From IMG/VR virus record IMGVR_UViG_3300025759_000073, positions 21,076 to 85,075 of that record: DNA of 64,000 nucleotides; one strand, given 5' to 3'. Under the pieces are notes generated by a model. That model saw nothing but the letters and a program-made list of their open reading frames with translations. It did no database searches and had not been told where the DNA came from. Below are positions 14,109 to 31,228 of the stretch, in pieces. The position numbers and the translations under genes were made by a program. Position 1 is the stretch's first letter. Every line of letters starts with the position of its first letter. The DNA comes from a virus.

Positions 14109-14450
14109 CTATTTTTTGTCTGGTCTCCAACCTTCCTTCCATCTTTGTTCTCTGCCTTCAATCCACTGTACATAGCAATCAAAACAGCAGGAAAACTTTG
14201 TGAAATAAACATCGTGTCTTGAGCCAATCTTTGTTTGTTCACAAGTTGAACAAACTCTTGCTACTTTTGAGAGGTTTTGTTTTGCTTTCTTCTCTAAATC
14301 TCTCTTTCTTTTTTCCTTTTCTTTCAATTGTTCAAGATATTCTTTTTCTTTTTCTTGATCCCAGCCTGCTTTTGGGTTTTGAACTGCCTCTGCACCCCAT
14401 TTTTCGGAGATTGCTTTCTCCATTTTCACAACGTAGTTTTGGTCTTTCAT
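14109..14450 (-). CDS. Hypothetical Zn-finger-like protein
   Basis: CSTC...CCFDC cysteine pattern; C-term GREQRWKEGWRP. Confidence 0.65.
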   Translation of the reverse strand: MKDQNYVVKMEKAISEKWGAEAVQNPKAGWDQEKEKEYLEQLKEKEKRKRDLEKKAKQNLSKVARVCSTCEQTKIGSRHDVYFTKFSCCFDCYVQWIEGREQRWKEGWRPDKK

Positions 14451-15238
14451 TAAACCTCCTTAAGTTTCTTTTGAATCAATGGCCACAATTTTTTGTAAAG
14501 ATGTTTTAAATAAGGTTGCTTATCTCTCATTGTATGTTGCAGTGTTTTATTATTTATAAATCTGGGATCGTCTCCCAATTTCGCCTCTTTAAACGCTCGA
14601 CTAACTCCTAATAAGAGTTTAAATAGATTTAACTGCGTAACCTGCCCTTCCTTGTAAAAATTAAACAAACTGTTTAAGTATTCTTTATCTTGTTCGTCTT
14701 CTGAATTTAAAAAGTCAACAACCTCTTTGTATATTTCGCTAGAGTGTGCTAAGATTTCTCTTTTTTGGGAAAGATAACCTTTTTTAAAATCTGATTTTTT
14801 AAAATATTTTGAATCTATCAGGTGAATCAACTCGTGATCAAGCATCCTACTTATGGCAAAGTCAATAGTTTCTTTGTCGAAATCTTCCTTGTATGCTACA
14901 ACTATTTTTAAATGATAATAACCTTTATCGCTTTCTTCCGAAAGAAATGCCAGAGAGTCTTCTTCTCCCTTTAGGGGCCGACCAACTGAAAGAATTAAGT
15001 CAACAACCTGCTCCTCTCCGGCAACATTTTTAAACTTAAAGCCTTCGGCTTGATCATAAATTTCCTCTTCTTTATCGGAAGTTAAATATATATTTAAAAG
15101 CTCACGAAACTTGTCTTCAATCAATTTTAAATTTTCATTTGAAATATGATTTTGAATTTTTAAAACACCTTCTTTCAAAAGTTCTCTTTCGATCTCTTCT
15201 TTGATGATTTTGAGAATGGTTTCTTTCTTGATCTTCAC
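14450..15238 (-). CDS. HExxH zincin-like protein with K-I-x-K..II.EE leader (start revised to GTG 15238)
   Basis: MLDHELIHLID plus a downstream YLSQKREILAH glutamate. GTGA overlap with the upstream stop. Leader (M)KIKKETILKIIKEEIERELLKE. Confidence 0.65.
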   Translation of the reverse strand: MKIKKETILKIIKEEIERELLKEGVLKIQNHISNENLKLIEDKFRELLNIYLTSDKEEEIYDQAEGFKFKNVAGEEQVVDLILSVGRPLKGEEDSLAFLSEESDKGYYHLKIVVAYKEDFDKETIDFAISRMLDHELIHLIDSKYFKKSDFKKGYLSQKREILAHSSEIYKEVVDFLNSEDEQDKEYLNSLFNFYKEGQVTQLNLFKLLLGVSRAFKEAKLGDDPRFINNKTLQHTMRDKQPYLKHLYKKLWPLIQKKLKEV

Positions 15239-15675
15239 TTTTGAATTCCTTGTATTCCGTAAAGAATTAAAATTGTTGTTCCTGCTCCGGCAACAAAGCC
15301 AATTGTGATCCAAAGAGGTGTCCAATTGTTTTGCGGCTTTGCAATCTTTCTTAATCTTGTAATCTCTTCTTGATCAATCTTTCTTAAGTTTTTTCTCAAT
15401 TCTTTTTCAATCTTGAAGTCTACTTTGCACTGATCAATCTTCAATTGAAGCTTTGCTTTTTCTTTTTGTTTCTGATAAGAACAATCCAGCTTCAAGCTTT
15501 TTTTCAAGTAATCTTGTTTTGCTAAAATCTTTGCCACCGCTTCATCATCCAAGAGCGTTCCAGAGAAGGGCGCTTTTGCCCCTTTTTGGAGTCTTGTGGA
15601 CTTATTGGCATAGCAGGGCGAAATTGTGATGAAAGTGGCTAGAATGGTGCTTAAAATGCGTTTAAAGGTGATCAT
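15235..15675 (-). CDS. Spanin-like exported protein (signal peptide, coiled coil, C-terminal TM)
   Basis: N-terminal signal ending ...ISPCYA, KGAKAPFSGTLL motif and C-terminal TM LWITIGFVAGAGTTILILY. Third gene of the holin cassette. Confidence 0.5.
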   Translation of the reverse strand: MITFKRILSTILATFITISPCYANKSTRLQKGAKAPFSGTLLDDEAVAKILAKQDYLKKSLKLDCSYQKQKEKAKLQLKIDQCKVDFKIEKELRKNLRKIDQEEITRLRKIAKPQNNWTPLWITIGFVAGAGTTILILYGIQGIQK

Positions 15676-16076
15676 TCTCCCTCCTTATAATCAAGACCAA
15701 ATTCGTCTGCCAATCTTTTGGACAATTGGGAAGGATCTTTCTTTGTTTGTTTCAAGATCTTTTTAACTTTCTTGTCGTATTCTTTCTTGGCGTTTTCTTT
15801 TCCAATCTTGTATTCTTTTCCAATTTCTTCCAAGATCTTTTCGTGTTTCTTTTCTAGATCTTTCTTTTCTTTTTGTTTTTGATCTTGCTTTTGCTGGATC
15901 TCGTACAATTCATCTTCTCTTCTTTTCTGCAAAGATCTTATAATTTGTCTTAGTCTTTTTTGACCGTCACTGGATACTAAAAGAAAAAGAGCAACTGTCA
16001 CAAAGACAAAGACAATTGCTATAAAATATTTGGATTCTGTCCACTTTCTTTTAATCTCTGCCCAAATCTCATTCAT
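15672..16076 (-). CDS. i-spanin-like protein (N-terminal TM plus coiled coil)
   Basis: TM FIAIVFVFVTVALFLLV followed by a charged coiled coil; follows the holin. Confidence 0.5.
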   Translation of the reverse strand: MNEIWAEIKRKWTESKYFIAIVFVFVTVALFLLVSSDGQKRLRQIIRSLQKRREDELYEIQQKQDQKQKEKKDLEKKHEKILEEIGKEYKIGKENAKKEYDKKVKKILKQTKKDPSQLSKRLADEFGLDYKEGE

Positions 16077-16384
16077 TTTGTCACCGTATCACCTGTTGTA
16101 TCGGAAAGGGGAACTTTTCCTTTCTCATCTTTCTTGTCTTTGTCGGACATGATTGTTTTCACTGCTGTTTCAACTTTCGTTGTAACATTGGTCGAACCTT
16201 TCATTGCTTTCACTGCATCAATAACAGATTGTCCACCAATATAAATAGCAGAGATCACAAGCCAGTCTCCTGATTTAAGATTGCCGGTTGTTAAAAATAC
16301 GATTGTTGCGACAATCCAAACCAATAACTTTTTTGAAATAAATGATGATAAATATTTATCAACAAATGCTTTTTTTCTAGCCAT
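16073..16384 (-). CDS. Putative holin
   Basis: 103 aa with SKKLLVWIVATIVF and WLVISAIYIGGQSVID hydrophobic segments and a charged C-terminal tail. Confidence 0.6.
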   Translation of the reverse strand: MARKKAFVDKYLSSFISKKLLVWIVATIVFLTTGNLKSGDWLVISAIYIGGQSVIDAVKAMKGSTNVTTKVETAVKTIMSDKDKKDEKGKVPLSDTTGDTVTK

Positions 16385-16411
16385 TTTAAACTCCTATTTA
16401 AATTTAATTTG

Positions 16412-17947: not shown

Positions 17948-18358
17948 TTATCCTACCCCCACTGAGCCTGACCAGTTGTTAGCCAATCTTTGCTTTGGTA
18001 TACCTGTCAACCCTGCAATGACAGAAGCCGAGCATTCATTTAAAGTATCCGACATTAAATAAAGATCTGTTACTTTAAACTCTGCTTCAAAGCTTTCTCC
18101 ATTGTTCAATGTAAAATAATTGTTATCAACCAAACCTTTCACTCCATTTTCAGATATTCCTACCCGAAGAGGCACGTTTGTTGCGCTCCCGTCTAGCGTG
18201 TTGGTAATTACAACAAATCTAGTGACAGACTCAAAAGAAATGTTCTTTGGTGTCGATCCGGACGCTGGTACCGTTAAAGAAGAAGTCAGATAAGGTCTGG
18301 AACTGACTTGGTACGAACCAACGTGACCCAAACCAACATCATATTTTGTCCAAGTCAT
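17948..18358 (-). CDS. Putative virion (head decoration) protein; paralog of 6582-6971
   Basis: MTWTKYDVGLGHVGSYQVSSRPYLTSS N-terminus; AGGAG SD. Confidence 0.55.
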   Translation of the reverse strand: MTWTKYDVGLGHVGSYQVSSRPYLTSSLTVPASGSTPKNISFESVTRFVVITNTLDGSATNVPLRVGISENGVKGLVDNNYFTLNNGESFEAEFKVTDLYLMSDTLNECSASVIAGLTGIPKQRLANNWSGSVGVG

Positions 18359-18368
18359 TTATAAACTC

Positions 18369-19085
18369 CTATTTTTGAACCAATCTTGAAACAAAGAACT
18401 TTCTTTTAAAACCATTCTTTGTTACGTTTAGACGATAATAATCAAAGCCGTTCCCTGTTGAATAAGGATTTTCAACACCTTTTTCTTTCATCCAAGTTTT
18501 ATCATAATAAGTAGTTGAGGAATAAACGTTGACAACGTCGTTGCCTTTGTATTTGTCCAATCCCAATCCAACTGTAGCGTGACCAGATGAATAATCTTCT
18601 GCGAACTGCATTGAAACCCAATCTCCAAATTGGATCTGATAAGGATCGTGCGTTGTGAAAGTTTCAAACCAATCAAAGCGTTCCGGTCTATTTGCTAGCC
18701 ACTTAAACCAACCCATTGCTCCAAGTTCGTCTGTTCGCATTCCATCAATCTCTTCGTCTTTATAAGCAAAGAAAAAGGCCCTTGCAACCTCCCAAGCTTC
18801 TCTGCCTGTAAAGTTGCCTTCTGGTGTTTCAAGATAATCCCCTGTGAACTCCTTCCACGCACGGAAAAAGATTTCCGAAGTGCATCCAACACAATAAGTT
18901 CCTTCGCCTTTTCTCAAAATCCTTCTTTTGTCATAATAGATATCTTCAGTTGAACCACCCCAGCTACCCCTTTTGTAAGGCATTGCTTTGGCATGAATAT
19001 CAATGATTGCTTTTTTAATGCACCATTGCCAATCTGAAATCTCTTCATCGTGTGGTAGAAGAGGGTACTTTTCGTCCATCTTCAT
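18369..19085 (-). CDS. Possible NlpC/P60/CHAP-like cysteine hydrolase (endolysin candidate)
   Basis: GTYCVGCTSEIF...FGDWVSMQF....SGHATV gives a Cys...GD...GH arrangement; lies about 2 kb upstream of the holin. Confidence 0.4.
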   Translation of the reverse strand: MKMDEKYPLLPHDEEISDWQWCIKKAIIDIHAKAMPYKRGSWGGSTEDIYYDKRRILRKGEGTYCVGCTSEIFFRAWKEFTGDYLETPEGNFTGREAWEVARAFFFAYKDEEIDGMRTDELGAMGWFKWLANRPERFDWFETFTTHDPYQIQFGDWVSMQFAEDYSSGHATVGLGLDKYKGNDVVNVYSSTTYYDKTWMKEKGVENPYSTGNGFDYYRLNVTKNGFKRKFFVSRLVQK

Positions 19086-20899
19086 GATTTCAAAATCCTT
19101 ACAACAAATCTTCTTTTGCTTTCTTTGATGAAGTAGTCCTTGGAGGCTTTTGCTTCAGAATCAAATCTGCCCAGAATGTAATCAACAGCCTTTTCTTTAG
19201 AGAAGTCATCACTCAAGTACAAAAGAATTGAGTCGTGAAGGTTATTGAACTTTCCGGTTCGCATCTGAATGACTTCATTCATAACATAAAATGTTTTAAG
19301 TTCTCCGTATTTTTCTGCGTCTTGATATCTTGTGTCCTTTGGCTTCTTCTTCTTCTCTTTCTTTTCTTTCTTATCTTTCTTTGGTTTAAACTCTGGGCGA
19401 ACAGGATTAAAGCGATCTGGTTCTTTCCCTTTCTTACCAGAGGCTGTGATAGAGCGCACACCGGGAACAACCGTTTTGTCTCCTTTTTTAATTCCCAAGA
19501 TATAATCAGCAGCCTCATCAAAACCTTCTGTTTCAATCTTATCCAAAATAACTTTAAGCCAGCTTTGATCTCCAAACTGTTCTGTATATTCTTTGTCCAT
19601 ATCCAACTCTTTAAGGTATGGGCCGACCAACTTCTTATTAATCCTTTCCTCTTCGCTGAATTGTTGTTTAATCTTTTCTAGGTTGACGATAGATTGTTTA
19701 ATTTGATTGATTGCAAATTCAGTAGTAACACCAAGACCTTTCTCTCCAGTCTTTCTGATTTGAGAAGCAACCCACACAATAGCTTGAAGCTCGTGAGGTA
19801 AGAGGCCTAGTTTTTTCGCTTCTTCAGCAACCAGTCCTGCCATATACCGATAAGTAACAACGTTACCCATCATCTTGCCTTTGATCTTTTCCCACTCTTT
19901 TGCCGTTGTAACACCTCTGACATTTGGATAAAAAGCGTCAATCATCCAAGTGTCAATTGTGGAGTTCCACATATAAAGCTCATCGTAGCTAATTTTCCCT
20001 TCTTTATCTCGCCCACCAGACAAATCTGGGGCGATCAAATTCAGGGTGAAGTTTGGAACTTTGTGCGCATTTGTAAACCCTCGAAATTCTCCCTGATTTT
20101 TCTTTTTACCACCGGGAAAGATATTAATATATTCTCTCAAAAGCTCTTTGTTGTCTTTTGCATCCATTTCAACTGCCTTGAACATAAAGGCCGCTTCAGC
20201 CAAGTTCAAAGCAAACTTGGCTCTGGGGCTGTACGTTGCAATAAGAAGACCTAGCAAAGTAGCGTCTTGATCGTTTCCGGTTTCTTCATCGAGGAGATCT
20301 CTAATTTTATGATACCAATCTCTAGCTTTTTCAAAGAGACTATCAACTTCACCACCCTCTTTTAACTCATTAACCATGGCCTGAAAATCTTCCAGAACCC
20401 CTGCGGAAACGGGGAGGACATACCCCCCTTTTTCGAATTCCTCTGGACTCATACGGCCCAGACCTTTTTTCAAACCACTAACGGCCCCAATGTTCTGCTT
20501 CATTTGACCGGACGGGGTGAAAAGCTCCAACCTTCTCATCACAAGTTCTTTGTCTTCTTCGGGCAATTCGCTCCATGAATCGTATCCAAAATGGCGTAGA
20601 GCAATATAATCCTTTTCCTCTTCGGTGGGCTCCACACCTTGCTCTGCCGACTCATTCAAAGCGGTCGCAACAGGCTCTAGATCTTCTACTTCGATTCTGG
20701 GAATATCTTCCGCAGTTCCTCCGGTTCTTTCTTCAAATGCTTTGTAGATCTTTTCGATTGCTTGGTTGATTTTTGACAAGTCTTCTTTTGAAACAACAAA
20801 ACCACCCAAAGAAGAATCATAAGACATTGTTTTGCCTTCTCTCTCTTTGAATTCTTTCATTGTTTTTCGAAAGCTTTCCATGATTAATTTCATCTTCAT
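19082..20899 (-). CDS. Multidomain protein with MKLIMESFRK leader and an HhH-glycosylase-like (DUF7178-like) core
   Basis: ARDWY...LIATYSPR...LNL...KVPNF.LNL...STIDTWM..AF...Y..MA..V.EEAKKLGL.PHELQAIVW. Confidence 0.55.
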   Translation of the reverse strand: MKMKLIMESFRKTMKEFKEREGKTMSYDSSLGGFVVSKEDLSKINQAIEKIYKAFEERTGGTAEDIPRIEVEDLEPVATALNESAEQGVEPTEEEKDYIALRHFGYDSWSELPEEDKELVMRRLELFTPSGQMKQNIGAVSGLKKGLGRMSPEEFEKGGYVLPVSAGVLEDFQAMVNELKEGGEVDSLFEKARDWYHKIRDLLDEETGNDQDATLLGLLIATYSPRAKFALNLAEAAFMFKAVEMDAKDNKELLREYINIFPGGKKKNQGEFRGFTNAHKVPNFTLNLIAPDLSGGRDKEGKISYDELYMWNSTIDTWMIDAFYPNVRGVTTAKEWEKIKGKMMGNVVTYRYMAGLVAEEAKKLGLLPHELQAIVWVASQIRKTGEKGLGVTTEFAINQIKQSIVNLEKIKQQFSEEERINKKLVGPYLKELDMDKEYTEQFGDQSWLKVILDKIETEGFDEAADYILGIKKGDKTVVPGVRSITASGKKGKEPDRFNPVRPEFKPKKDKKEKKEKKKKPKDTRYQDAEKYGELKTFYVMNEVIQMRTGKFNNLHDSILLYLSDDFSKEKAVDYILGRFDSEAKASKDYFIKESKRRFVVRILKS

Positions 20900-21175: not shown

Positions 21176-22021
21176 TTACCACCAAGTAAACCTTTTCTTT
21201 GAACCGGTTAAATGCGGATAGCGACCAACACGACAAGCCCAATATCCTGCTTTTGTTTTGTCTTTCTTTTGTTTGCATTTGTGTCGTGCTGCAAAAGACT
21301 TTCTTCTTTCTGGGCTGGCGACTTTGACCGACATTCCTTTGGAGCCAAACGAAACTTTGCGAATGTTTTTGGTTTTTGGGTCTCTGACATAAACATAAAA
21401 CTTCTTGGAACCACCCCTTTGGGGTTTATTAAGCTTAACGTCCTTTCCTTTGTACTTTGCCTCCAAAAGAGACTCTTCCACCATTGGAAAGTCCAATGGA
21501 ACTCTTTCGCCCTCAAAGATGCCGAATTCTCCAATTTCAGTTTCAGAGATATAATATCTTTCAGCTTCTGTTAAACTAACCAAGCCTTTTTTCCAAAGGT
21601 TTCTTGCTTCTTTGAAAAGAGAAAAGAAGTTGTCAGAGTGAATACGATAAATGTTTTTATCAATGGTAATATTGTTGTCCATATGATACTTCATCCCTTC
21701 GGAAAGTCTTTCTTCAAGCATTCCCTGATCTCTGGCAATCTCACCGGCCAGATAATGTTTAACAGAAGAAAGATAATCGGATGCTTTTGTGATCTTTGCA
21801 TCAACCCACTCCGGAAGATCATCTTCGTCTCTGATCATGGAGAGTAGCTTTTCACAATATCTTTGCGCTTTAGCAAGATTTGTCCTAGCCATTGAACCTT
21901 CGTGATCGTGCTTATCAAAGTCGCGACCGTGTTCGCTCCTGCAATAAGAGCACCCGGAATGTGGACATCTTTCATAAACACCAATACATCCTTTCATCTC
22001 TTTCAAAATCTTTATTTTCAT
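21176..22021 (-). CDS. Modular hypothetical protein with a basic C-terminal DUF6321/DUF5754-like domain
   Basis: Modules EGSMA....LPEWVDAKITKASDYL, LSEGMKYH...FKEAR and EAKYKGKDVKLNKP.RGGSKKFYVYV...KVSFG...RRKSFAARHKC...AGYWAC. Confidence 0.65.
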   Translation of the reverse strand: MKIKILKEMKGCIGVYERCPHSGCSYCRSEHGRDFDKHDHEGSMARTNLAKAQRYCEKLLSMIRDEDDLPEWVDAKITKASDYLSSVKHYLAGEIARDQGMLEERLSEGMKYHMDNNITIDKNIYRIHSDNFFSLFKEARNLWKKGLVSLTEAERYYISETEIGEFGIFEGERVPLDFPMVEESLLEAKYKGKDVKLNKPQRGGSKKFYVYVRDPKTKNIRKVSFGSKGMSVKVASPERRKSFAARHKCKQKKDKTKAGYWACRVGRYPHLTGSKKRFTWW

Positions 22022-24003
22022 TTCTTTTTTCCTTTTTTAGAACTTAAAATGTTTATTTTAAATCTCTTTCTTTCAAACATCAACCGGCCTGTTGAAGATT
22101 CTCCTCTGGCGTAACCTTGAATTGCATTCATAATATTTTTATTGTCTTTGTACTTAGATGACAACTTATTGAGAAGGGAGCGGAATCCAGCTTGATCTTT
22201 AGACATGTACGTAATTGCTTCCTTGCTTTCCATTACGCTAATTAAATGTTCATTATTCTTTGGCAAACTCAACAGCATACTTACATAATCCACCAGCAGA
22301 CTAGGTGAAATTCCATATTTCTTAAAGTTTTTCTCGGCAAAGCCGTAATACTCTATTACTTCTCCAATATAATCATACCCTTTCTCAAAGTCTTTTTTAC
22401 CATATTTTAACACAATTTCCTTTTTTATATCTTCTGGTGTTTGTTTATTTGCTAACAAATATTTCCTCATCAACATTCTTTGTTCTGTGTAGGGTTTCTC
22501 GTACTCTTTGACTTTTTCACGATAATAGCGTTTTATTTGATTTGCATTGAGCTTTTTTATGACTCTCGAAAGATAGCTACTAACGTCTTCTCTATCTTTG
22601 GTGCTAGCCCCTTTGCCAACGTAATCTTCAGTAGATTTCTGGTCCTTGTCGAGTGAACCCTCAAAATAAGGATTTTTGAAAATATCTACTATTTCAAAGC
22701 CAGTTTTACTTAAGACAACAAACTCATCAGGGTGTTTACCTCGGCTCTCTTGGGCTCGGGCATCTCCTGTTTGACCGGTACCTCTTTGGAATTTTTGATA
22801 TATCCTTCTTCTTACGTTGAAACCCATTCTTGCTAGGTAGAATCCGGCGTTGAAGTCAAGGCCATATTTTCTAAGCTTATGTTCCACATCTAAAACCACT
22901 TGATATAATTGGGTTAAAGCACCGCCTTCTTCCCAGTCTCGAATCCCAGCCCACCCACGATGGCCAAACTCTTTTTCTCTTCTTCCTGTTTTTGCAAAAT
23001 CGTCAACTTTTGTGATCAATCTTTCCATATCATTTTTTAATGTACCATTGTCGATGACTTGATTTACTTGTCTGCCGATGGTATGCCTCTCTTTGTTGAT
23101 ATCATTTTTAAATCTGGAAACAAAATCATCAAAATTAAAATATTTCCCCATATACCCTTTATAATGGTTTAACACTTCTTGTTGTTTGAAGGCTTTTTTG
23201 AATAAAATGGGAAGAAATTCTTCATAAACTTTAGCAATATCGATAGACGAATGACTAGTCTGTCTATTCGTCTTAAATATATCAAAAAAATCGGTGTTAT
23301 GATCAATTGTTTTTCCAACTGCACTTATCCACAAAGATTTTGTCATAGGATTATTCCGCTCGAAATCGTTCGCTGCTCTGCGGGCCTTCTTTTGATCTTC
23401 TTCACCTAAGCCTTCGATAGCGTCCTCAAGCATATATACTTTCGCCATAATTATCCAACTATCCATAATAGAAGCTATCACCTCAACCTGATCTTTTTGT
23501 GCTTTTTTGATTGCAACCTTTGAGTGTTTTGTGGCCATTTTTTTTAAGATTTTGGCTTTTTCAGCTATTTCCTCTTCAGAGATATTCTCATTACCATCGA
23601 CCAGATCAAGAACTTCATCTGGTCCTGATTTAAATTTAATCAAGAAAATAAAAGGAAGCCCTGCTGCGTATACTGGTGCGCCAACATTTCTATAGTATTC
23701 CAAACTTTCCTCACTAAGGCCCCACCCATATAATCCGGGAGTGTTTGTTTTATAATCTCTGCCATGGAATGCCGGTCTTTCAGATCTAGCATTGAAGTGA
23801 AGCATGTGGTCCTCCTCTCCAACGGGCTTGGCATACTTTTCTAGATGTTTAAAAAGCTTTTCAAGATCCGGTTCTTGAACCTCTTCTGCTGAAACTTCAC
23901 CTTTTACCGTTTTAAACGCGGTTTTTCCTTTTTCAACTTCTTTGTCTAATCTAGTTTTCTCTTTTAAAAGGAACTTCCGCCAGCTTTCCATTGTCAACTT
24001 CAC
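22018..24003 (-). CDS. Large protein with MKLTMESWRKFL leader; possible ADP-ribosyltransferase-like domain
   Basis: GTG start coupled to the upstream stop. Motifs HMLHF...NTPGLYGW.L...PVYA..LPFIFLI...VLDL and HPDEFVVL....EIVDIFKNP. Confidence 0.5.
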   Translation of the reverse strand: MKLTMESWRKFLLKEKTRLDKEVEKGKTAFKTVKGEVSAEEVQEPDLEKLFKHLEKYAKPVGEEDHMLHFNARSERPAFHGRDYKTNTPGLYGWGLSEESLEYYRNVGAPVYAAGLPFIFLIKFKSGPDEVLDLVDGNENISEEEIAEKAKILKKMATKHSKVAIKKAQKDQVEVIASIMDSWIIMAKVYMLEDAIEGLGEEDQKKARRAANDFERNNPMTKSLWISAVGKTIDHNTDFFDIFKTNRQTSHSSIDIAKVYEEFLPILFKKAFKQQEVLNHYKGYMGKYFNFDDFVSRFKNDINKERHTIGRQVNQVIDNGTLKNDMERLITKVDDFAKTGRREKEFGHRGWAGIRDWEEGGALTQLYQVVLDVEHKLRKYGLDFNAGFYLARMGFNVRRRIYQKFQRGTGQTGDARAQESRGKHPDEFVVLSKTGFEIVDIFKNPYFEGSLDKDQKSTEDYVGKGASTKDREDVSSYLSRVIKKLNANQIKRYYREKVKEYEKPYTEQRMLMRKYLLANKQTPEDIKKEIVLKYGKKDFEKGYDYIGEVIEYYGFAEKNFKKYGISPSLLVDYVSMLLSLPKNNEHLISVMESKEAITYMSKDQAGFRSLLNKLSSKYKDNKNIMNAIQGYARGESSTGRLMFERKRFKINILSSKKGKKK

Positions 24004-25766
24004 TTCTTTTTTCCCTTTTTGGCAGATTTTTTACCCCAAGACTTCCCTTTACCTTTGCTTCCACAAGCAGCCGGCGTTGGACGGCAAGAGGGGTATTTTG
24101 CTCTTTTCTCACCTTTCTGACGACCACAAGACTTGCAGGTTTTCTTTCCTGTTTTCTTGTCTGTTCGGCAAGTATTGCAATCAACCCAGCCTTTGCTTTT
24201 TCCTTTACCACCTTGCCTTTCAAACCAACCGTGAAGACCTTTATCTTTTTCTTTGGAAAAGTCAGTCTTTACTTTTTTTTTAGCCTTCTTTTTTTTCTTC
24301 TTTTTTCTTTCTTGGATCATTTTCTCTAATTTATCTGCTTGGCTAGAATGAGCCTCTGAACCTTTTTCAAGTTTTGCTGCGCCATCTTCTAAGTCTTTTG
24401 CCATTTGAGCGTGAGACTCTGATGCTGCTCTTAGCTTTGTTACAATGTCAGCAATTGTTTCCTTGTCTTCTGGAGTGATTTCCCTCTCTTCTGTCAGACC
24501 TTTCCAGATATTTCTCCTTCGCCTTCTTTCTTGCAAAGTATCCACTTTCTCGCAGCCATTCTGCGTTCCGTATAGTTGTTTGCCAAACTCAGCACAATTG
24601 ATCCTATCATCTAAATATTGATATTGCTCAGTTCTATTGTGTCTTTTTAATACCTCTCTTGCTTTTTTCTGAATGTCTATGTCTTTATCCATGTGTTGGA
24701 CGATTATGTGAAAATGGTCCCAATTTTGGTCAGAAAAGTTATTATAATCTGCATCAGACATCATATTGAATAATTTTTTAAATTCTTCTTGTCTAGAGTG
24801 ATCACCAAACAAATCTTCCTTATCAGTTCCATGTTCTTTTGCAAATTCATCAACTAGTTCTTCCGACCATCCACCTGCCGCCTTCAACCGAATCGCCCAA
24901 ATTTGTCTTAATTCCTGATCGCCTTTTGCTAGTTGCGATAGTTTTTGTTTAATGTCGCCCTCACCTGCCGCCTCGTTTAGCTCTTCTGTTAGACCTTTCC
25001 AGATCTTTCCCCTGCGACACTGAACAACTGCGCCGCTAGCGTAGGCTGAAGGCCACACATCATATTTTCTTTTTGCAATGCGAGTGCAACGATCGTCTTT
25101 GCCTTTCTTCTTTTTGGATTTTTTCTTCTTTTTTTTCTTTTTGGCCTCTTCCAGTGCTAATCTAACCTCCTCTAGAATGATCGCACTTAATTCTTCAATA
25201 TTCATATTTTTGCTTTCCTTATAAAGAACATAATCCATTTCATCAATATGTTCAGGGGCGTTTCTTAACATTTGAGTTGCTTCTTCAAAAGGCACAATCC
25301 TAACATCGTATATGGGAAGCCTTTCAACATCCCACTTCACCTCTTCAACGTAACCATACTTTGGAGGGACATCAGTCTTGAAAATGATTGCTACGATGTC
25401 CTCATCGCCTAGGTGAGTAGTTTGCACTCCGGGTACAAAATCTCCCCAAATCAATGAAACCGCGTCAATCGTATCTGTTCCAAACTTCTTTATACCTTCG
25501 GGCTGTCGAAGTAGTACTCCCATCTCTCTAATCTTGTAAGCTCTATCTCGCAGGGTGAAGTGCAGAAATACATCATCTTCTACGTTTTTGTACAAAGTGT
25601 CTTCCAAGATCAGATCCTCGTTAACTTCTGCTGCATAAAGCGCTTTTTTGTAATCCTCCGGATCGTCTGTGCATCCGACACGCTTTCCGCTTTTTTTGTA
25701 GACAACGTGCGTTCCGGAAGAGCCATCTGATTTTTTACACTTTGTTTTTCTAATCTTATAAGGCAT
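24000..25766 (-). CDS. Modular polyprotein-like accessory protein (ART-like, DUF5872-like and DUF6624-like modules, poly-Lys tracts)
   Basis: Modules LHFT....I.E.G.LL, KYDVWPSAYASGAVV, DQELR...IVQH...YLDDR.....KQLYGTQ and GLHGWF...WVD...CGR...KYPSCRP, separated by L/I-x-E sites. Confidence 0.65.
   Translation of the reverse strand: MPYKIRKTKCKKSDGSSGTHVVYKKSGKRVGCTDDPEDYKKALYAAEVNEDLILEDTLYKNVEDDVFLHFTLRDRAYKIREMGVLLRQPEGIKKFGTDTIDAVSLIWGDFVPGVQTTHLGDEDIVAIIFKTDVPPKYGYVEEVKWDVERLPIYDVRIVPFEEATQMLRNAPEHIDEMDYVLYKESKNMNIEELSAIILEEVRLALEEAKKKKKKKKSKKKKGKDDRCTRIAKRKYDVWPSAYASGAVVQCRRGKIWKGLTEELNEAAGEGDIKQKLSQLAKGDQELRQIWAIRLKAAGGWSEELVDEFAKEHGTDKEDLFGDHSRQEEFKKLFNMMSDADYNNFSDQNWDHFHIIVQHMDKDIDIQKKAREVLKRHNRTEQYQYLDDRINCAEFGKQLYGTQNGCEKVDTLQERRRRRNIWKGLTEEREITPEDKETIADIVTKLRAASESHAQMAKDLEDGAAKLEKGSEAHSSQADKLEKMIQERKKKKKKKAKKKVKTDFSKEKDKGLHGWFERQGGKGKSKGWVDCNTCRTDKKTGKKTCKSCGRQKGEKRAKYPSCRPTPAACGSKGKGKSWGKKSAKKGKKK
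24486..25004. repeat. 24-bp direct repeats (23/24 identical) flanking an inserted domain
   Basis: ctcttctgtcagacctttccagat (24486-24509) and ctcttctgttagacctttccagat (24981-25004); both encode IWKGLTEE. Confidence 0.9.
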
Positions 25767-26185
25767 TATTTTTCACCTTTTTCTTGCCATTCGTAAGAAA
25801 CTTTATCTTCTTTAATTGGCCCGCCTGCTGCCCAAGTGTAGCAAGTTCTTGCGCTGTGGCATTTGAAGTGGTGCATCCAGCAATAGCCCAATCGACCATC
25901 TTCATCAGAGACAGGGCCGGGCATACAATCGTCCATTCTGGGTGAAATATCAAAAGCAACACAATTGCCGCATTTGGACTTTTTAGCCACGTCGGGGGTA
26001 GTGTTCCAATGCTCTGCGGCTCTTTCCCAGTAAGCCTCGTCAGAGAGGTTCAAAGGGCCGTATTGGATGTGTTTTGCCTTGATTGAAGCGTTTCTGTTTT
26101 TGGTGTTTAGCTCTAGATCTTGTGTGGCAGGAGGGCATTTACCTCCTGAAATGGGGAGTTTTTTGAGGAATTTAATTTTGATCAT
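25766..26185 (-). CDS. Cys/His-rich hypothetical metal-binding protein
   Basis: CPPATQD...CGNCVAF...C...LGYCWMHHFKCHSARTCYTW. Confidence 0.65.
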   Translation of the reverse strand: MIKIKFLKKLPISGGKCPPATQDLELNTKNRNASIKAKHIQYGPLNLSDEAYWERAAEHWNTTPDVAKKSKCGNCVAFDISPRMDDCMPGPVSDEDGRLGYCWMHHFKCHSARTCYTWAAGGPIKEDKVSYEWQEKGEK

Positions 26186-26212: not shown

Positions 26213-26221
26213 ATAAATAGG
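26213..26221 (-). promoter_or_regulatory. Putative late promoter CCTATTTAT heading the accessory block
   Basis: Intergenic, 28 nt upstream of ATG 26185, just after the SbcCD-like stop. Confidence 0.55.
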
Positions 26222-29200: not shown

Positions 29201-29377
29201 TTCAACAAATTCTGGTGAGATTTGGGTTTTGGTGTGAGCAATATCACCACAATGAATAATATAATCTGGCCTTTCTCTTTTCAACTCTTTATAAAGTTGC
29301 TTGAAAACTAGATCATACTCGTAGTGATATTTAAGGTTTTTAATGTGGGTGTCTGCAATATGGGCAAACTTAGTCAT
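26228..29377 (-). CDS. Fused recombination nuclease-ATPase (T4 gp47+gp46; SbcD+SbcC; Mre11+Rad50)
   Basis: N-terminal metallophosphoesterase motifs ADTH, CGDIAH, LGNHD, LYHG, GDIH, YAGS. C-terminal ABC ATPase motifs GKNYSGKS, coiled coil, SGAEK, FILDEP, IISH. Likely start is MTKFAHIAD at 29377 (track start 29389). Confidence 0.92.
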   Translation of the reverse strand: MTKFAHIADTHIKNLKYHYEYDLVFKQLYKELKRERPDYIIHCGDIAHTKTQISPEFVEICSDFFKNLAAIAPTYIILGNHDGNLRNKSRQDAISPIVDALGIANLHLIKKAAKIRLTEPFTLNVLSIFDEDNWDLTQDPDRINIALYHGAVKGSVTDVGYVIEHGDVEIEDLKKFDYGFLGDIHKTNQKIDRKGKIRYAGSTVQQNFGETDDKGFLVWEIEDKDKFSVRHILLENPKPFVTIKLTKKGKIPKSANPKAGARIRLVSESNITLDVLKKAIEDAKINFKAESVTHLSKAELAKKNVDLKDGEIENLRDVEVQKKLMKEYLEEFEVEDDIMDKVVELNAKYNSLVEGSDDQLRNLNWKMKSMEWENLFNYGGDNSLDFEKMKGIIGIFGKNYSGKSSIIDSFLLGAFNTTSKPAKKNISFINQNKTDANIELKFDIGGEEYTISRSIEKYVKKLKGKTTDEAKVNVDFSCFDPAAKKVVELNGNTRAETDRNIRKYIGSIEDFLITSMSAQHGALQFVNEGSTKRKEILAKFLDLVFFEEKFKAAKEDSRDLKALIKKEEERNFKDEIFEQQSALIYNQLDLDEKKECCDILKNEKKGMEKELSLLEHKIKSVPAKIINVEKCRKELKNSNQILETLRASQANLEGQKEEKSAYLNKIKEFLSTFDPEEYYQSYEVGKEKAKQVKLILNEVKQEEIKKKMEEKKISLLDQVPCGDQFKTCKFIKDAFVAKTTVSELELALKGLQKEKEEAQDYIDGDEYKKAEEYVQNYEKLVEKKDKVSSELLKLKNKVLQGETKISSTESIISELRSDIKEYEDNKEAIENLEALIKEEKQLKKDLKQKENEYNTCEAEYIHLHTVKGQIEQKLETVKKEAEEYEENKKKFAAYHLFMTCYHNSGISYEIIKKRLPKINEEVQKILTGVVDFEVFFETEEKKLNILIQHQGHDPRPLELGSGAEKSIAAMAIRLALLNVSSLPKSDIFILDEPGTALDENNLEGFTRILQMIKNYFKTVLIISHMDSLKDIVDSTIDIDRVDGFARVNQ

Positions 29378-29765
29378 TGAAGCCTCCATTTTTAACTTTT
29401 TCTATTGTTTCGCTGATTTCACTTCTGACAACATTAAATATTGCCGGTGACAGGTTGTACAACTCTTTAAATGCTTCGTCTCGCCAAAGATCAACATCTT
29501 TCTCCCTTTTATCAAATTCTTTTTCCAAAGCATAATCTGTATAATCTGGATTTACTCTTTTGAAGCTTTCTTTTTGCTCTTGTATCTCCCTTCTAGTATC
29601 GACATAAACTTGCAAAAGAAAAGAAAGAGATAAATACATTGCAGATTTCATAATTTTATACGCTTGTGCCACACCCACGACAAATTGTAGGCTCATGTAG
29701 GCCAGAATACCACCTAAAAACCAGACCAACTCATAAACACCTTGTTGTTTCAAAAATTCAATCAT
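29370..29765 (-). CDS. Hypothetical membrane-anchored protein
   Basis: N-terminal hydrophobic segments; AGGAG SD. Confidence 0.6.
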   Translation of the reverse strand: MIEFLKQQGVYELVWFLGGILAYMSLQFVVGVAQAYKIMKSAMYLSLSFLLQVYVDTRREIQEQKESFKRVNPDYTDYALEKEFDKREKDVDLWRDEAFKELYNLSPAIFNVVRSEISETIEKVKNGGFND

Positions 29766-29774
29766 TTGTGTCTC

Positions 29775-30698
29775 CTATATGTTAATCATTGAAAATAAAG
29801 TATCAAATCTAACTTCAACTGCTGTCATTTTTAGCCTTTGATATTCATATTTTGAAATGTCGTTCAAATCTTTTCCTTCTGGGACTTCTATTTTCCAAAC
29901 GTCTACTCCATATTTGATCAAGCTTGAAATAATGTCAAGCTCTTTTTTGTAAGCATCTGGATCTAAAGCAATAAAAACCTTTTTGGCTTTTTCGACAATC
30001 TTTTGAAAAAGGTCTGACCTTTCTGAAAGGGTTGATCCTAAGATTGGGATCATATTCTTTTCGTGAATTGCATCAAAAACACCCTCGACCAAGATGATTG
30101 GCTTTTCCCAATCAATTAAAAGGTCATTAAAAACAATATCTTTTGATGCTTTTGGGTTTTTGTACTTTTTCCAATCTTTTTCATATGTTCTTGAAACAAA
30201 ATAACTAACATCCCCTTCATCATCAAAAGAAGGAATGATTATTCTTCCTTTGTATTCTCCCGATGGGCAATACCCAACCTTCCATTCTAAGATCTTTTCT
30301 TGTGAAAAGCCTCTTGATTTAAGATAATTCAAAGGCTTTTGAGAATAAAGGTCAATTGACCCTGTGAAAAGCGGCTTGTACTCTTTTGGCAGATCGATCT
30401 TTTGCTTGATCTTCTCTTGTACCGTTGAGCCAGTGATCATCAGTTCAAAATCACGAACATCGATCTGATTTGTGATCTTAAGCCATTCTTGCTGGTTATC
30501 AAATGATCCAAATCTTTTTAGAAGGTAATAGACGTTTTTACCACTTGTGTCACAAACCCAACATTTGAATACGTTCTTAGAGATGTTCACAGACATTTTT
30601 GGCTTATGGTGCTTGCAGAAAGGACAATAGAAAAGATGCTCGCTCCCTTTGGAGTAAGCATAATCTAATGTGTTTTTAAGGATGGATAGTTCTTTCAT
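29775..30698 (-). CDS. dnaG: DNA primase (DnaG/T4 gp61-like)
   Basis: Zn motif CPFC..H...CWVC, YLKSRG, GRIIIP, KYKNP, TOPRIM LVEGVFDA and IALDPDA. Confidence 0.92.
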   Translation of the reverse strand: MKELSILKNTLDYAYSKGSEHLFYCPFCKHHKPKMSVNISKNVFKCWVCDTSGKNVYYLLKRFGSFDNQQEWLKITNQIDVRDFELMITGSTVQEKIKQKIDLPKEYKPLFTGSIDLYSQKPLNYLKSRGFSQEKILEWKVGYCPSGEYKGRIIIPSFDDEGDVSYFVSRTYEKDWKKYKNPKASKDIVFNDLLIDWEKPIILVEGVFDAIHEKNMIPILGSTLSERSDLFQKIVEKAKKVFIALDPDAYKKELDIISSLIKYGVDVWKIEVPEGKDLNDISKYEYQRLKMTAVEVRFDTLFSMINI

Positions 30699-30727
30699 GT
30701 GTGGCTTCCTTTGAAAAAGTTACACAC

Positions 30728-30756
30728 ATTATATCAAGGATGGGGGGTGTTGTCAA
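30728..30756 (-). promoter_or_regulatory. Perfect sigma70 consensus promoter TTGACA-N17-TATAAT for primase and sbcCD
   Basis: Minus strand TTGACA acaccccccatccttga TATAAT, 30 nt upstream of the primase ATG. Confidence 0.88.
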
Positions 30757-30769
30757 GAGGTTTATTTTC

Positions 30770-31228
30770 TCATCCCATAGGATAATCTTCCATATTCCCA
30801 CTGTCTTCGTAAATAATAGCGCCACCACCGGGAGAATACACATATCTTTTCCATGTTCCTTCACTAACATTAGTCGAATCTGAGAAGAACGAGGACTTCT
30901 TCTTAAGGTTAAATTTAATAACTTGTGTATAGTAACCTGTTTCTTCTCTTAACTCTCCACTTAAGATATCTTCTCTTGTCGCAGGAGGAAGAGGAGGGAC
31001 ATCTTCCGGCGCGAGTTCCACCGAATACTGCTTGTTGCGTCCGACCTGCTTGGCTAAACTGTGATGGTCATATTTCTTAAGTTTTTCTAGATGTTGCTTA
31101 TAGGCTTTCTGATCGGGTCGGCCCTTCCTATCTACAAAGTTACTCTGATCATAATCCCGCACTTCTCTTTCTTCCCTAAGTAACTCCTCCTTGATGATCT
31201 TCATTAGAAACTTCTTGGTGATTTTCAT
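30770..31228 (-). CDS. Hypothetical protein with MKITKKFLMKIIKEE leader
   Basis: ATGA overlap with ruvC. The leader is shared with the ORFs starting at 15238 and 7621. Confidence 0.65.
   Translation of the reverse strand: MKITKKFLMKIIKEELLREEREVRDYDQSNFVDRKGRPDQKAYKQHLEKLKKYDHHSLAKQVGRNKQYSVELAPEDVPPLPPATREDILSGELREETGYYTQVIKFNLKKKSSFFSDSTNVSEGTWKRYVYSPGGGAIIYEDSGNMEDYPMG

What the first reader, a model, noticed from the sequence alone, without database searches (positions are those of the whole stretch)
14450..31228. Candidate capsid-targeted, protease-matured effector cargo system: unrelated proteins share short address peptides
Seen: otherwise unrelated ORFs carry three recurring short peptides. 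Type A is K-I-x-K/x..II.EE: MKIKKETILKIIKEE (15238), MKITKKFLMKIIKEE (31228), MKINLEKLKNIIRPIVKEVIEE (7621) and internal MNIEELSAIILEE in 24000-25766. Type B is MKLIMESFRK (20899) and MKLTMESWRKFLLKE (24003). Type C is a basic beta-strand, either N-terminal (MKIKILKE 22021, MIKIKFLKK 26185, MFKIKI 9164) or C-terminal (IKE-SKRRFVVRILKS, MFE-RKRFKINILSS). Most are bounded by L/I/M-x-E, like LLKE/A in the capsid protein. Established: T4 internal proteins use a short N-terminal capsid-targeting sequence, gp21 cleaves after E in L/I-x-E, and packaged proteins such as Alt and IPI are injected with the DNA. Inference: this phage uses interchangeable address tags to load diverse enzymes (zincin, glycosylase-like, ART-like, basic DNA binders) into the head under a late promoter (26213), for host takeover or anti-defence on injection.
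Basis: partly seen in the sequence, partly recalled or inferred. Interest (0 to 1): 0.85.

Follow-up and report, generated by a model that had tools for sequence, protein, structure and literature searches.

The report
Shared address peptides on phage proteins
Two short peptide tags sit at the front of many unrelated proteins in this freshwater T4-like phage and its aquatic relatives, and they probably load enzymes into the phage head for delivery with the DNA, although packaging itself has not been shown.

Summary
The window is an uncultured freshwater T4-like myovirus that encodes a gp21-type (S77) prohead protease.

- Type A (consensus MKITKSQLKQIIKEEL) is on w30770 and w14450.
- Type B (MKLLFENWRKYLKE) is on w19082 and w22018.
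- Both window pairs beat every shuffle. The body of w19082 and that of w22018 show no profile similarity.

In relatives the tags sit on very many different payloads.
- 213 unique B-tagged proteins fall into 100 payload clusters.
- 95 unique A-tagged proteins were found in the same loci.
- A B-tag profile finds 1,307 representative proteins at E<=0.001 among 1.84 billion. In 139 of the best 150 the match starts at residue 1-3.

Further properties:
- Copies differ by synonymous codons, so selection acts on the peptide.
- 202 of 213 B tags end in hydrophobic-x-Glu, the gp21 cleavage motif.
- Tagged genes come and go as cassettes between ~90%-identical genomes.

Not supported: N-terminal "type C", the internal MNIEEL motif, and w7226 as a clear type A member. 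The C-terminal basic strand is real but rare.

Capsid targeting with protease removal is the best explanation (about 0.55), but it is inferred and not shown. First readers of this scan noted the same tags on other genomes; those notes were unchecked.

The parts
30770..31228 (-). w30770, 152 aa, a type A tagged protein (MKITKKFLMKIIKEEL). The tag is roughly 31181-31228.
   Evidence: PSSM-A score 40.3, the best of 2,392 candidate starts in the contig. In the ~90%-identical record L001 the body is replaced between the conserved tag and the C-terminal EDYP.
14450..15238 (-). w14450, 262 aa, a type A tagged protein with a GTG start (VKIKKETILKIIKEEI). The body contains HELIH.
   Evidence: PSSM-A score 35.6. 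The GTG start overlaps the upstream TGA. Its tag equals the tag of one L001 gene and its body equals the next L001 gene, which implies a deletion between two tag copies. No Pfam, PHROG or PDB match.
22018..24003 (-). w22018, 661 aa, type B tag (V/MKLTMESWRKFLLKE) plus a C-terminal basic strand (LMFE|RKRFKINILSS).
   Evidence: PSSM-B score 32.2. HMM E 5.8e-5 in the own genome. Only 3 relatives among 5.8 billion sequences. Absent as a clean cassette from L001. GTG/TGA overlap confirmed.
19082..20899 (-). w19082, 605 aa, DUF7178 protein with a divergent type B tag (MKMKLIMESFRKTMKEFKE) and a C-terminal basic strand (YFIKE|SKRRFVVRILKS).
   Evidence: PF23802 at 29.3 bits against a cut-off of 27. 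145 homologs, whose consensus starts MKLLFENWRK. In the AF2 model the tag helix 2-20 has pLDDT 52-58, and residues 16-32 and 597-605 are below 50. The core 166-394 resembles HhH-GPD glycosylases at Z 7.7.
7623..8222 (-). Prohead protease, S77 (T4 gp21 type).
   Evidence: PF03420, E 7.3e-30, 104 bits. At least 589 relatives in IMG/VR.
7226..7621 (-). w7226, 131 aa, the gene directly after the protease. It is a conserved head-module family whose N-terminus is only weakly type A-like.
   Evidence: PSSM-A score 6.9. The same position in 63 distinct relatives holds about 36 members of this family, 10 proteins with canonical type A tags and 1 with a type B tag.
25766..26185 (-). w25766, 139 aa, Cys-rich payload without a recognisable tag.
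   Evidence: Five orthologs in relatives (66-83% identical) carry type B tags. The alignments begin after residue 5 in one and residue 16-17 in the other four.
24000..25766 (-). w24000, 588 aa, a mosaic of payload modules without an N-terminal tag.
   Evidence: Residues 225-261 and 507-568 match a type A tagged protein of L008. Residues 273-378 match a type B tagged protein of L004. Other modules match B-tagged proteins of L024, L074 and L121. L001 lacks an internal module.
21176..22021 (-). w21176, 281 aa, a fusion of two modules that carry type A tags elsewhere.
   Evidence: Residues 103-265 match L113 (type A tagged, E 6e-53). Residues 36-93 match L099 (type A tagged, E 2e-12). DUF5754 and phrog_7595 hit the C-terminal part.
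26213..26220 (-). Promoter-like motif CTATTTAT about 27 nt upstream of w25766, at the head of the gene run w25766 to w18369.
   Evidence: 11 copies in the window, all on the coding strand. 0 of 100 shuffles reach 11. Seven copies lie 27-62 nt upstream of a start codon (my reading of the coordinates). One of these is at 4158, before the putative scaffold gene.
31291..31298 (-). A copy of the same motif, 62 nt upstream of w30770.
3048..4124 (-). Putative scaffold protein, an acidic 358-aa protein next to the capsid gene.
   Evidence: 20 L/I-x-E sites (5.6% against 1.4% for the proteome, second highest density; composition alone predicts about 10). No family match. The role is inferred from position.
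1258..3024 (-). Major capsid protein, gp23 type, with LLKE|A at residue 59.
   Evidence: phrog_138, E 2.9e-70. Sequence.
18369..19085 (-). w18369, 238 aa. It ends in a similar basic strand (KRKFFVSRLVQK) but without a preceding hydrophobic-x-E.
   Evidence: Sequence. My tail rule is negative for it.

Best explanation
The peptides are modular docking tags, analogous to the capsid-targeting sequence (CTS) of the T4 internal proteins.

Proposed mechanism:
1. Each tag is a 14-16 residue amphipathic helix. Both types fit one template: M-K-h-x-x-x-x-h8-[KR]-x-h11-h12-K-E14-[ED].
2. Late in infection the tag docks its payload onto the scaffolding core of the prohead.
3. The S77 prohead protease (7623-8222) then cuts after the Glu of the closing hydrophobic-x-Glu.
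4. This frees the payload inside the head, and it leaves with the DNA at the next infection.

SHOWN here:
- The tags exist and are position-specific.
- They are selected as peptides, not as DNA.
- They sit on very many unrelated payloads.
- They end in the gp21-type motif.
- They co-occur with an S77 protease.
- Tagged genes are exchanged as cassettes, with recombination between tag copies.

INFERRED, not shown: docking to the core, cleavage, presence in virions, injection, and any host-takeover role.
For: (1) Above chance in the window.

(2) Unrelated bodies.
- hhalign probability is 1.9%.
- In 18 related loci, 59 B-tagged proteins form 30 payload clusters.
- In 137 loci, 213 unique B-tagged proteins were found; the 211 of 60 aa or more form 100 clusters, 72 of them singletons.
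- 95 unique A-tagged proteins were found.
- A whole-library HMM search finds 1,307 representatives at E<=0.001. In 139 of the best 150 the match starts at residue 1-3. Lengths run from 26 to 1,134 aa.

(3) Peptide-level selection.
- Mean entropy is highest at the third codon position (1.18, against 0.85 and 0.60 bits).
- Within single loci, 19-36% of identical-residue pairs use different codons.

(4) Cleavage-type ending.
- 202 of 213 B tags have [LIVMF]-x-E ending at position 13-16 (178 at position 14). The background rate is 2.2% per position.
- 76 of 95 A tags have a second such site at positions 17-30.

(5) Protease.
- The window encodes S77.
- 5 of 5 long tag-bearing records also do.
- The scaffold-like protein is dense in L/I-x-E, and the capsid protein has LLKE|A.

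(6) Link to the head module. The gene directly after the protease carries a canonical type A tag in 10 and a type B tag in 1 of 63 distinct relatives. The null is 0 of 3,000 random windows.

(7) Add-on nature.
- In the AF2 model the tag helix and the tail are low-confidence and separated from the fold.
- In tagged relatives the Pfam domains start right after the tag: NUDIX at residue 26, AAA_33 at 25, the HAD-like domain at 14.

(8) Cassette behaviour between ~90%-identical genomes.

(9) Published precedent, read as passages.
- gp21 cuts after L/I-X-E.
- The first 10 residues of IPIII suffice for packaging.
- Residues 4 and 7 target; residues 8 and 10 govern processing.
- Alt is trimmed at both ends (PMC9026906).
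- T-even internal proteins are diverse and share only the CTS (PMC3012670).
- The CTS string is given in 10.1101/2021.01.19.427310.
Against: - There is no proteomic, structural or genetic evidence that any tagged protein is in a virion or is cut.
- No cultured phage with the type B tag was found. It is absent from Mel-JY01, immuto, RM378, LR756508 and S-B05 (the positive control worked).
- Hydrophobic-x-Glu is a low-information motif inside a K/E-rich helix. Its conservation may simply be part of the helix.
- Payload modules also exist without a tag in this very phage (w24000, w25766, w21176), so the tag is dispensable for at least some of them.
- 25 of the best 150 library hits have two or more tag-like stretches. 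I found 20 internal or C-terminal copies in them. Only 10 of these 20 have a hydrophobic-x-E within 18 residues upstream, against a null of 37%. There is therefore no sign of excision on both sides.
- The enrichment behind the protease (11 of 63) is only a few-fold above the share of tagged genes that I estimate for a genome.
- Similarity to the T4 CTS is a pattern seen by eye, not a scored match.
- The loci were largely fetched by the tag itself, so per-locus densities are biased.
Confidence: 0.55

Rival explanations
1. The tags are docking helices for some other shared partner, not the prohead. Candidates are a phage chaperone or hub, a membrane site, a host protease or adaptor that times degradation, or a host target. 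The closing Glu would then be part of the helix and not a cleavage site.
For: - Everything that shows a modular peptide tag fits this equally well.
- Internal and C-terminal copies show that the motif works away from the N-terminus.
- Tagged genes lie in clusters far from the head genes. In G001 the type B cluster is at 2.4-10.2 kb and the protease at 107.5 kb.
- Several payload modules occur untagged.
Against: - No candidate partner was identified.
- The T4 precedent, the S77 protease in 5 of 5 records, the ending in the protease motif and tagged genes directly behind the protease gene all point to the head.
- T4 internal-protein genes also lie away from the head genes (recalled, not from a call).
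Confidence: 0.27
2. The conserved 5' ends are mainly DNA-level homology arms that let gene cassettes shuffle between phages, like the mobile regulatory cassettes of T4-type phages. On this view the peptide is incidental.
For: Recombination between tag copies is visible. The tag of w14450 aligns to two tag copies of L001, and the roughly 460 nt between them are missing. w22018 and other tagged genes are clean indels.
Against: - Copies keep the residues while changing codons. Several synonymous codons each are used for the conserved Leu and Arg positions, and the third position is the most variable.
- The tag is kept across orthologs that are only ~50% identical.
- Copies occur inside proteins.
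- Recombination is better read as a consequence of the repeats.
Confidence: 0.07
3. The conserved start is a translation signal in the mRNA (a downstream box) used with the phage-encoded ribosomal protein S21.
For: - The phage encodes S21 in the head module (PF01165, 36.1 bits).
- The tags begin ATG AAA.
Against: - Synonymous variation at most positions.
- Internal and C-terminal copies of the peptide.
- Two distinct tag families with the same residue template.
Confidence: 0.04
4. The similarities are chance resemblances of K/E-rich N-termini in an AT-rich genome.
For: This holds for part of the list: w7226 versus type A, the two 'type C' N-termini, w8613 and the internal MNIEEL motif are at chance level.
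Confidence: 0.02

Closest known systems
[quoted passage not shown]
   Same: - A short N-terminal peptide is shared by otherwise diverse proteins.
- It ends in hydrophobic-x-Glu.
- The genome encodes an S77 protease.
- Cargo genes vary between close relatives.
- By eye, the spacing h-x-x-h-h-x-E is the same: T4 Y4..F7-I8-x-E10 against W8..Y11-L12-K-E14 (type B) and L8..I11-I12-K-E14 (type A). These are the T4 positions reported to govern targeting and processing.
   Different: - The tags are 14-16 residues rather than 10, and there is no scored sequence similarity.
- Two tag families occur side by side.
- The payload range is far larger: 100 clusters in 1.36 Mb and 1,307 representative proteins library-wide, against a handful in T-even phages.
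- Internal and C-terminal copies occur.
- The payloads are mostly enzyme-sized and of unknown family.
- Packaging and cleavage are untested.
T4 Alt, a packaged ADP-ribosyltransferase trimmed by gp21 at both termini
   Same: w19082 and w22018 carry a tag at the N-terminus and a short peptide after hydrophobic-x-Glu at the C-terminus. Both ends have low confidence in the model.
   Different: - No sequence or fold relation to Alt was found.
- The C-terminal strand is rare: 7 of 194.
- Processing is not shown.
Processed head and ejection proteins of phiKZ, 201phi2-1 and SPN3US
   Same: Many different head-internal proteins with propeptides are cut after Glu by a distant gp21 homolog (passages).
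   Different: - Those propeptides are not reported there as one shared short tag.
- Their cleavage motif is S/A-X-E.
- The phage lineage is different.
Cargo-loading peptides of encapsulins
   Same: A short, portable peptide directs unrelated enzymes into an HK97-fold shell (recalled, not from a call).
   Different: - Those peptides are usually C-terminal and are not removed.
- There is no protease or DNA delivery.
- No sequence relation was tested.

Membership tests
T4-type capsid-targeting propeptide system | The same genome encodes a gp21-type (S77) prohead protease | tested here: met
   PF03420, E 7.3e-30 in the window. 5 of 5 long tag-bearing records are over the cut-off.
T4-type capsid-targeting propeptide system | A short N-terminal peptide is shared by proteins with unrelated bodies | tested here: met
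T4-type capsid-targeting propeptide system | The peptide ends in the protease motif L/I-x-E | tested here: met
   202 of 213 B tags. All A tags end in I/L/V-[KRQ]-E, which my search pattern required. 76 of 95 A tags have a second site. This is a sequence motif only.
T4-type capsid-targeting propeptide system | Sequence relation to the T4 CTS | tested here: inconclusive
   I compared the consensus only by eye with the CTS string printed in the preprint. The spacing is shared, but nothing was scored.
T4-type capsid-targeting propeptide system | Tagged proteins are present in virions and the tag is cleaved off | not testable with these tools
   No proteomics is available. No cultured phage with the type B tag was found.
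T4-type capsid-targeting propeptide system | The tag is sufficient to package a foreign protein | not testable with these tools
   This needs an experiment.
T4-type capsid-targeting propeptide system | The cargo repertoire varies between close relatives | tested here: met
   Window against L001/G004: w22018 is absent, two extra type A genes are present, and the body of w30770 is replaced.
DUF7178 (PF23802), for w19082 | Pfam score over the gathering cut-off | tested here: met
   29.3 bits against 27. PF23802 is precomputed on most of the 120 listed homologs.
HhH-GPD DNA glycosylase superfamily, for the w19082 core | Shared fold | tested here: inconclusive
   VIA-align: 3n0u Z 7.7 (168 aligned, rmsd 5.0), 7ugk Z 6.7, 1xqp Z 6.1, and lower rows for EndoIII, OGG1, AlkA and Mag. 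Z is under the tool's caution line for helical proteins. Foldseek finds nothing at E<=0.001. The PDB sequence profile finds nothing relevant.
HhH-GPD DNA glycosylase superfamily, for the w19082 core | Catalytic Asp/Lys and the HhH motif in register | not tested
   No residue-level superposition was made.
Zincin metallopeptidase, for w14450 | An HExxH motif in a recognised peptidase fold | tested here: inconclusive
   The HELIH string is present. Pfam, PHROGs and PDB give nothing. In the Atlas, named neighbours score only 0.82-0.85 (LPD23, M78-like), below the tool's lead level.

The most novel reading that the evidence does not exclude
Aquatic far-T4-type phages use a two-address peptide code (A and B) that loads a very large, rapidly exchanged set of enzymes into the capsid for co-injection. 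At least 1,307 representative protein clusters carry tag B alone. Payloads include kinase-like, NUDIX, HAD-like, P-loop kinase, 2H-phosphoesterase-like and HhH-GPD-like proteins. Arrays with internal tags would be processed as polyproteins by the prohead protease. If so, the tag is a sequence handle that finds injected effectors of uncultured phages directly in metagenomes.
Probability: 0.4. Interest if true: 0.85.

Novelty: new variant of a known kind. Interest (0 to 1): 0.7.

Why it matters
- Which phage proteins travel with the DNA into the cell is known for only a few cultured phages.
- A conserved, searchable tag that marks such proteins would turn thousands of "hypothetical" metagenomic ORFs into a defined class of candidate first-strike effectors. 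These could include anti-defence proteins.
- It would extend the T4 CTS principle, which is used for protein packaging in engineered T4, to a large uncultured lineage with two new tags.
- Even if the partner is not the capsid, one peptide on more than a thousand unrelated proteins is a strong lead to an unknown hub.
- Three searches of the paper library found no description of these tags: the tag strings (2 unrelated papers), "capsid targeting sequence" with metagenom* (1 unrelated paper), and prohead protease / propeptide / cyanophage / internal protein (5 listings, none on this lineage by title or abstract).

Tried and rejected
Led nowhere or rejected:
- Megablast of 14000-32000 against cultured phages: no match.
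- tblastn of w19082 against phages: only a 25%-coverage hit in Microcystis phage Mel-JY01.
- Pfam and PHROGs on the window's tagged proteins: almost nothing.
- Cluster look-up for names: none.
- My first null, random internal windows, was flawed because windows from the same long proteins overlap. I used the shuffle null instead.
- Search of residues 1-40 of w30770 against the 5.8-billion set: 45 candidates and 2 hits. The window's tag is too divergent for the word index.
- Foldseek of the w19082 model against PDB: nothing at E<=0.001.
- PDB sequence search for w14450: 0 hits. For the DUF7178 profile: only designed proteins at E>0.05.
- Type B in five reference phages: none.
- Type A in the same five: 15 hits in the 484-kb uncultured phage LR756508, 2 weak hits in Flavobacterium phage immuto and 1 weak hit in Mel-JY01. 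I did not inspect these further.
- The T4 late box TATAAATA occurs upstream of 0 of 299 tagged genes.
- CTATTTA / CTACTTA occurs upstream of 52 of 299 tagged genes, against 45 of 712 other ORFs. The control set includes spurious ORFs, so the enrichment is modest.
- Test for a cleavage site upstream of internal tag copies: 10 of 20 against a null of 37%, no signal.
- RNA-library runs hold only contigs of 90-95%-alike relatives over parts of 18000-27000. The tool itself warns that this does not show transcription, so I draw nothing on expression or timing.
- PHROGs on the genes behind the other promoter-like motif copies named only a baseplate wedge protein and the terminase. Calling the motif "late" therefore rests on the putative scaffold gene and on position.
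- Supplementary files of papers were closed and not asked for. Virion or metaproteome tables there could bear on the packaging claim.
- Not done: a second structure prediction, residue-level checks of the glycosylase or zincin ideas, the ART-like claim, and any multimer model of tag plus head proteins (the tool folds single chains only).

Full report
WHAT THE WINDOW IS

All long genes lie on the minus strand. The window is part of an 85,075-base virus record. It encodes:
- a gp23-type major capsid protein (phrog_138, E 2.9e-70) and a gp20-type portal (phrog_213);
- a large terminase;
- a gp21-type S77 prohead protease at 7623-8222 (PF03420, E 7.3e-30);
- a fused Mre11/Rad50-like protein and a primase;
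- a RuvC-like resolvase;
- a ribosomal protein S21 homolog inside the head module.

The capsid protein is closest to an uncultured 484-kb phage (40% identity), Microcystis phage Mel-JY01 (39%), Flavobacterium phage immuto (48% over 64% of the protein) and Rhodothermus phage RM378 (34%). The head-gene order matches Mel-JY01 and immuto. The DNA is held by 20 runs labelled freshwater metagenome at half or more of the sampled words. Three of these may be the source sample. Many relatives of w19082 come from Tara and other collections.

CHECK OF THE OBSERVATION

The two GTG starts overlap the preceding stop codon as GTGA.

I scored every pair of 70 proteins of the contig for similarity of residues 2-16, allowing shifts of up to 3.
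- Three pairs stand out: w6582/w17948 at 52 (real paralogs over their whole length), w14450/w30770 at 46, and w19082/w22018 at 34.
- None of 300 shuffles of the N-termini reached these values at the same rank.
- w7226 against w14450 (20) and w21176 against w25766 (18) are ordinary.

Position-specific matrices built from relatives give the same picture.
- Type A is clear for w30770 and w14450, weak for w7226, and absent for the internal MNIEELSAIILEE.
- Type B is clear for w22018 and w19082.

The w19082 and w22018 bodies are unrelated by profile-profile comparison (probability 1.9%), yet they share both the N-terminal tag and a C-terminal basic strand after hydrophobic-x-Glu.

THE TAGS IN RELATIVES

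w19082 belongs to DUF7178 and has 145 homologs at E<=0.001. The 120 best are listed, and most are about 50% identical. Their consensus begins MKLLFENWRK. w22018 has only three relatives, and one at 32% identity keeps both ends.

In 18 IMG/VR loci fetched with the DUF7178 alignment, many ORFs of different length and C-terminus begin MKLLFENWRKYLxE. These are 59 proteins in 30 payload clusters.

My own rough estimate of the chance expectation is about two; no tool computed this.

Over 137 loci (1.36 Mb) there are 241 B-tagged ORFs, 213 of them unique. The 211 of 60 aa or more fall into 100 clusters by BLASTP at 1e-4, and 72 of these are singletons.

The same loci hold 95 unique proteins that begin with the type A tag, consensus MKITKxxLKQIIKEEL.

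These loci were mostly fetched by the tag, so their densities are biased. Two sets of figures are unbiased.

Whole-record scans:
- The own contig has two type A and two type B genes.
- The ~90%-identical 157-kb record G004 has ten type A genes scoring 17.7 or more (seven of them at 45.3-50.8 kb), one clear type B gene, and a second weak type B HMM hit at 55,096 (E 8.6e-4).
- The complete 204-kb record G001 has six type B genes (2.4-10.2 kb) and five type A genes.

Whole-library profile search:
- Among 1.84 billion representative proteins, 1,307 match the type B profile at E<=0.001.
- In 139 of the best 150 the match starts at residue 1-3.
- Lengths run from 26 to 1,134 aa. Many short ones are probably fragments.

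WHAT KIND OF SIGNAL IT IS

- Tag copies keep their residues while changing codons. The conserved Leu and Arg positions use several synonymous codons each, the third codon position is the most variable, and 19-36% of identical-residue pairs within one locus use different codons. Selection is therefore on the peptide.
- 202 of 213 B tags have [LIVMF]-x-E ending at position 13-16. When Glu is not at 14 it is usually at 15, with the hydrophobic residue shifted as well. The background rate is 2.2% per position.
- Type A tags end in I-K-E at 12-14. My search pattern required this, so it is not an independent result. 76 of 95 have a second such site at positions 17-30.
- Read side by side, both types fit h8-[KR]-x-h11-h12-K-E14. 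This is my reading.
- In the AF2 model of w19082 (mean pLDDT 80.2) the tag is a helix of low confidence followed by a disordered stretch, and the C-terminal tail is also below 50.
- In tagged relatives, known domains begin directly after the tag: NUDIX at residue 26, AAA_33 at 25, and the HAD-like DUF2608 at 14.
- 14 of 20 payload representatives have no Pfam match. The others are HAD-like, two weak protein-kinase hits, a borderline 2H phosphoesterase, a P-loop kinase and NUDIX.

CASSETTE BEHAVIOUR

Against L001 (a stretch of G004; shared parts 88-95% identical), one search shows:
- w22018 is missing exactly, gene for gene.
- The two genes w16412 and w17948 are missing.
- L001 has two extra type A genes.
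- The 45-nt tag of w14450 aligns to two L001 tag copies with the stretch between them absent. w14450 is therefore the tag of one gene joined to the body of the next.
- The body of w30770 is replaced between a conserved tag and a conserved C-terminal end.

Window proteins without a tag are built from modules that carry tags elsewhere:
- w25766 has five orthologs with type B tags.
- w21176 joins two modules that carry type A tags.
- w24000 is a mosaic of modules found on A- and B-tagged proteins.

It is not a third tag.

LINK TO THE HEAD

- All five long tag-bearing records tested encode an S77 protease.
- The protease clade has at least 589 members in IMG/VR.
- In 63 distinct relatives, the ORF directly after the protease gene has a canonical type A tag in 10 and a type B tag in 1.
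  - 27 further ORFs match my pattern for the w7226 family. About nine more are visibly the same family.
  - The N-terminus of this family (MKKSELKQVLKPLIKE) resembles type A only weakly (scores -4 to 15.5).
  - 0 of 3,000 random windows pass the same threshold.
- The putative scaffold has 20 L/I-x-E sites. Its density is second highest in the proteome and about twice what its composition predicts. The capsid protein has LLKE|A.
- A motif CTATTTAT occurs 11 times, always on the coding strand (0 of 100 shuffles reach 11).
  - Seven copies lie 27-62 nt before a start codon.
  - These include the putative scaffold gene, the run w25766-w18369, and w30770.
  - In relatives it is modestly enriched before tagged genes.
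  - That it is a late promoter is an inference.

INTERNAL COPIES

25 of the best 150 library hits have two or more tag-like stretches. I read all 25 and found 20 internal or C-terminal copies, each closing with hydrophobic-x-Glu. One group shares a ~95-residue first module, then a second tag, then different payloads. Upstream cleavage-type sites are not enriched (10 of 20 against a null of 37%). The copies argue against an N-terminus-only or mRNA-level role. They do not prove polyprotein processing.

COMPARISON WITH WHAT IS KNOWN

In T4, gp21 cuts after L/I-X-E. The first ten residues of IPIII suffice for packaging, with residues 4 and 7 mattering for targeting and residues 8 and 10 for processing. 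Alt is trimmed at both ends. The reviewers suggest that the CTS lets T4-like phages package varied proteins (passages of PMC9026906). T-even internal proteins are diverse and share only the CTS (passage of PMC3012670). The CTS string is printed in 10.1101/2021.01.19.427310 (passage).

The present tags share this logic and, by eye, the spacing of hydrophobic residues before the Glu. They differ in several ways:
- they are longer;
- they come in two families;
- they sit on a vastly larger payload set;
- they occur in a lineage with no cultured member carrying type B.

Membership in the T4 CTS system cannot be claimed, because packaging and cleavage are untested.

PAYLOAD OF w19082

- Foldseek finds nothing.
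- The wide structural search puts HhH-GPD glycosylases and the related queuine-salvage enzyme on top: Z 7.7, 6.7 and 6.1, with further family members at lower Z.
- These values are below the level at which the tool advises trust for helical proteins.
- "Glycosylase-like" is therefore a moderate lead.

VERDICT

The core of the observation (types A and B, and the shared ends of w19082 and w22018) is confirmed and greatly extended. Parts of the list are chance. Capsid targeting with protease removal is the best-supported mechanism and fits every test I could run, but no test here touches a virion.

Earlier first-reader notes of this scan describe the same tags on other genomes: e1-6128512, e1-6065090, e1-5875232 and e1-5829009. 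They were unchecked, and I do not count them as evidence.

Noticed in passing
window 6968-7216 (-): A ribosomal protein S21 homolog (PF01165, 36.1 bits against a cut-off of 27) lies inside the head module. Microcystis phage Mel-JY01 has an annotated RpsU at the same relative place.
   Followed up: partly
window 16412-18358 (-) and 5238-6971 (-): w17948 is a paralog of w6582 (BLASTP 1.7e-11). It sits next to w16412, a virion structural protein (phrog_1645). Both w16412 and w17948 are absent from the ~90%-identical record L001, so a structural-gene pair also varies as a cassette.
   Followed up: partly
related proteins P0148, P0150, P0194; loci L008 and L004; record G001: Many tagged proteins of relatives end with the same extreme C-terminal peptide: NETPT, NETPI or NETPV (also NETST and NETTI). 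Sometimes it comes right after a C-terminal tag copy. None was seen in the window. This may be another short recognition peptide.
   Followed up: no
window 7623-8222 (-) and loci L163-L242: The protease N-terminus is strongly conserved as MSKxLLREYYELCxxGxCxDLLTE. By eye it begins like tag B (K-L-L-x-E-aromatic) and contains Y-Y-E and L-T-E. The C-terminus is a conserved amphipathic KINRALNxIL. T4 gp21 is reported to be processed at its C-terminus and to have a cleavage-type site near its N-terminus.
   Followed up: partly
window 24339-24981: The internal module of w24000 is missing in L001. One contig of an RNA-library run skips 24339-24981. Its homolog in L004 is a separate B-tagged gene.
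   Followed up: partly
window 26228-29389 (-): Single 1,053-aa ORF that joins a Mre11-like phosphoesterase (Metallophos) to an SMC/Rad50-like ATPase. T4 has these as two genes, 47 and 46 (the T4 arrangement is recalled).
   Followed up: no
window 1166, 4158, 14082, 26213, 31291, 35086, 38466 and four more sites (-): The strand-specific motif CTATTTAT has 11 copies, against 2.6 expected. Seven lie 27-62 nt before start codons. In relatives ACTATTTA is found before 37 of 299 tagged genes, against about 2 expected. It is not the T4 late box.
   Followed up: partly
phage record LR756508.1 (W04), 143-220 kb and 440 kb: The 484-kb uncultured phage whose capsid protein is closest to the window's has 15 matches to the type A tag profile at E<=1. 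They cluster at 189-195 kb and around 219 kb, near its capsid gene at 172 kb. It has no type B match.
   Followed up: no
window 4420-5226 (-): A concanavalin-A-like lectin/glucanase domain protein (Laminin_G_3, 34.6 bits) lies between the scaffold and protease genes. It may be a head decoration protein.
   Followed up: no
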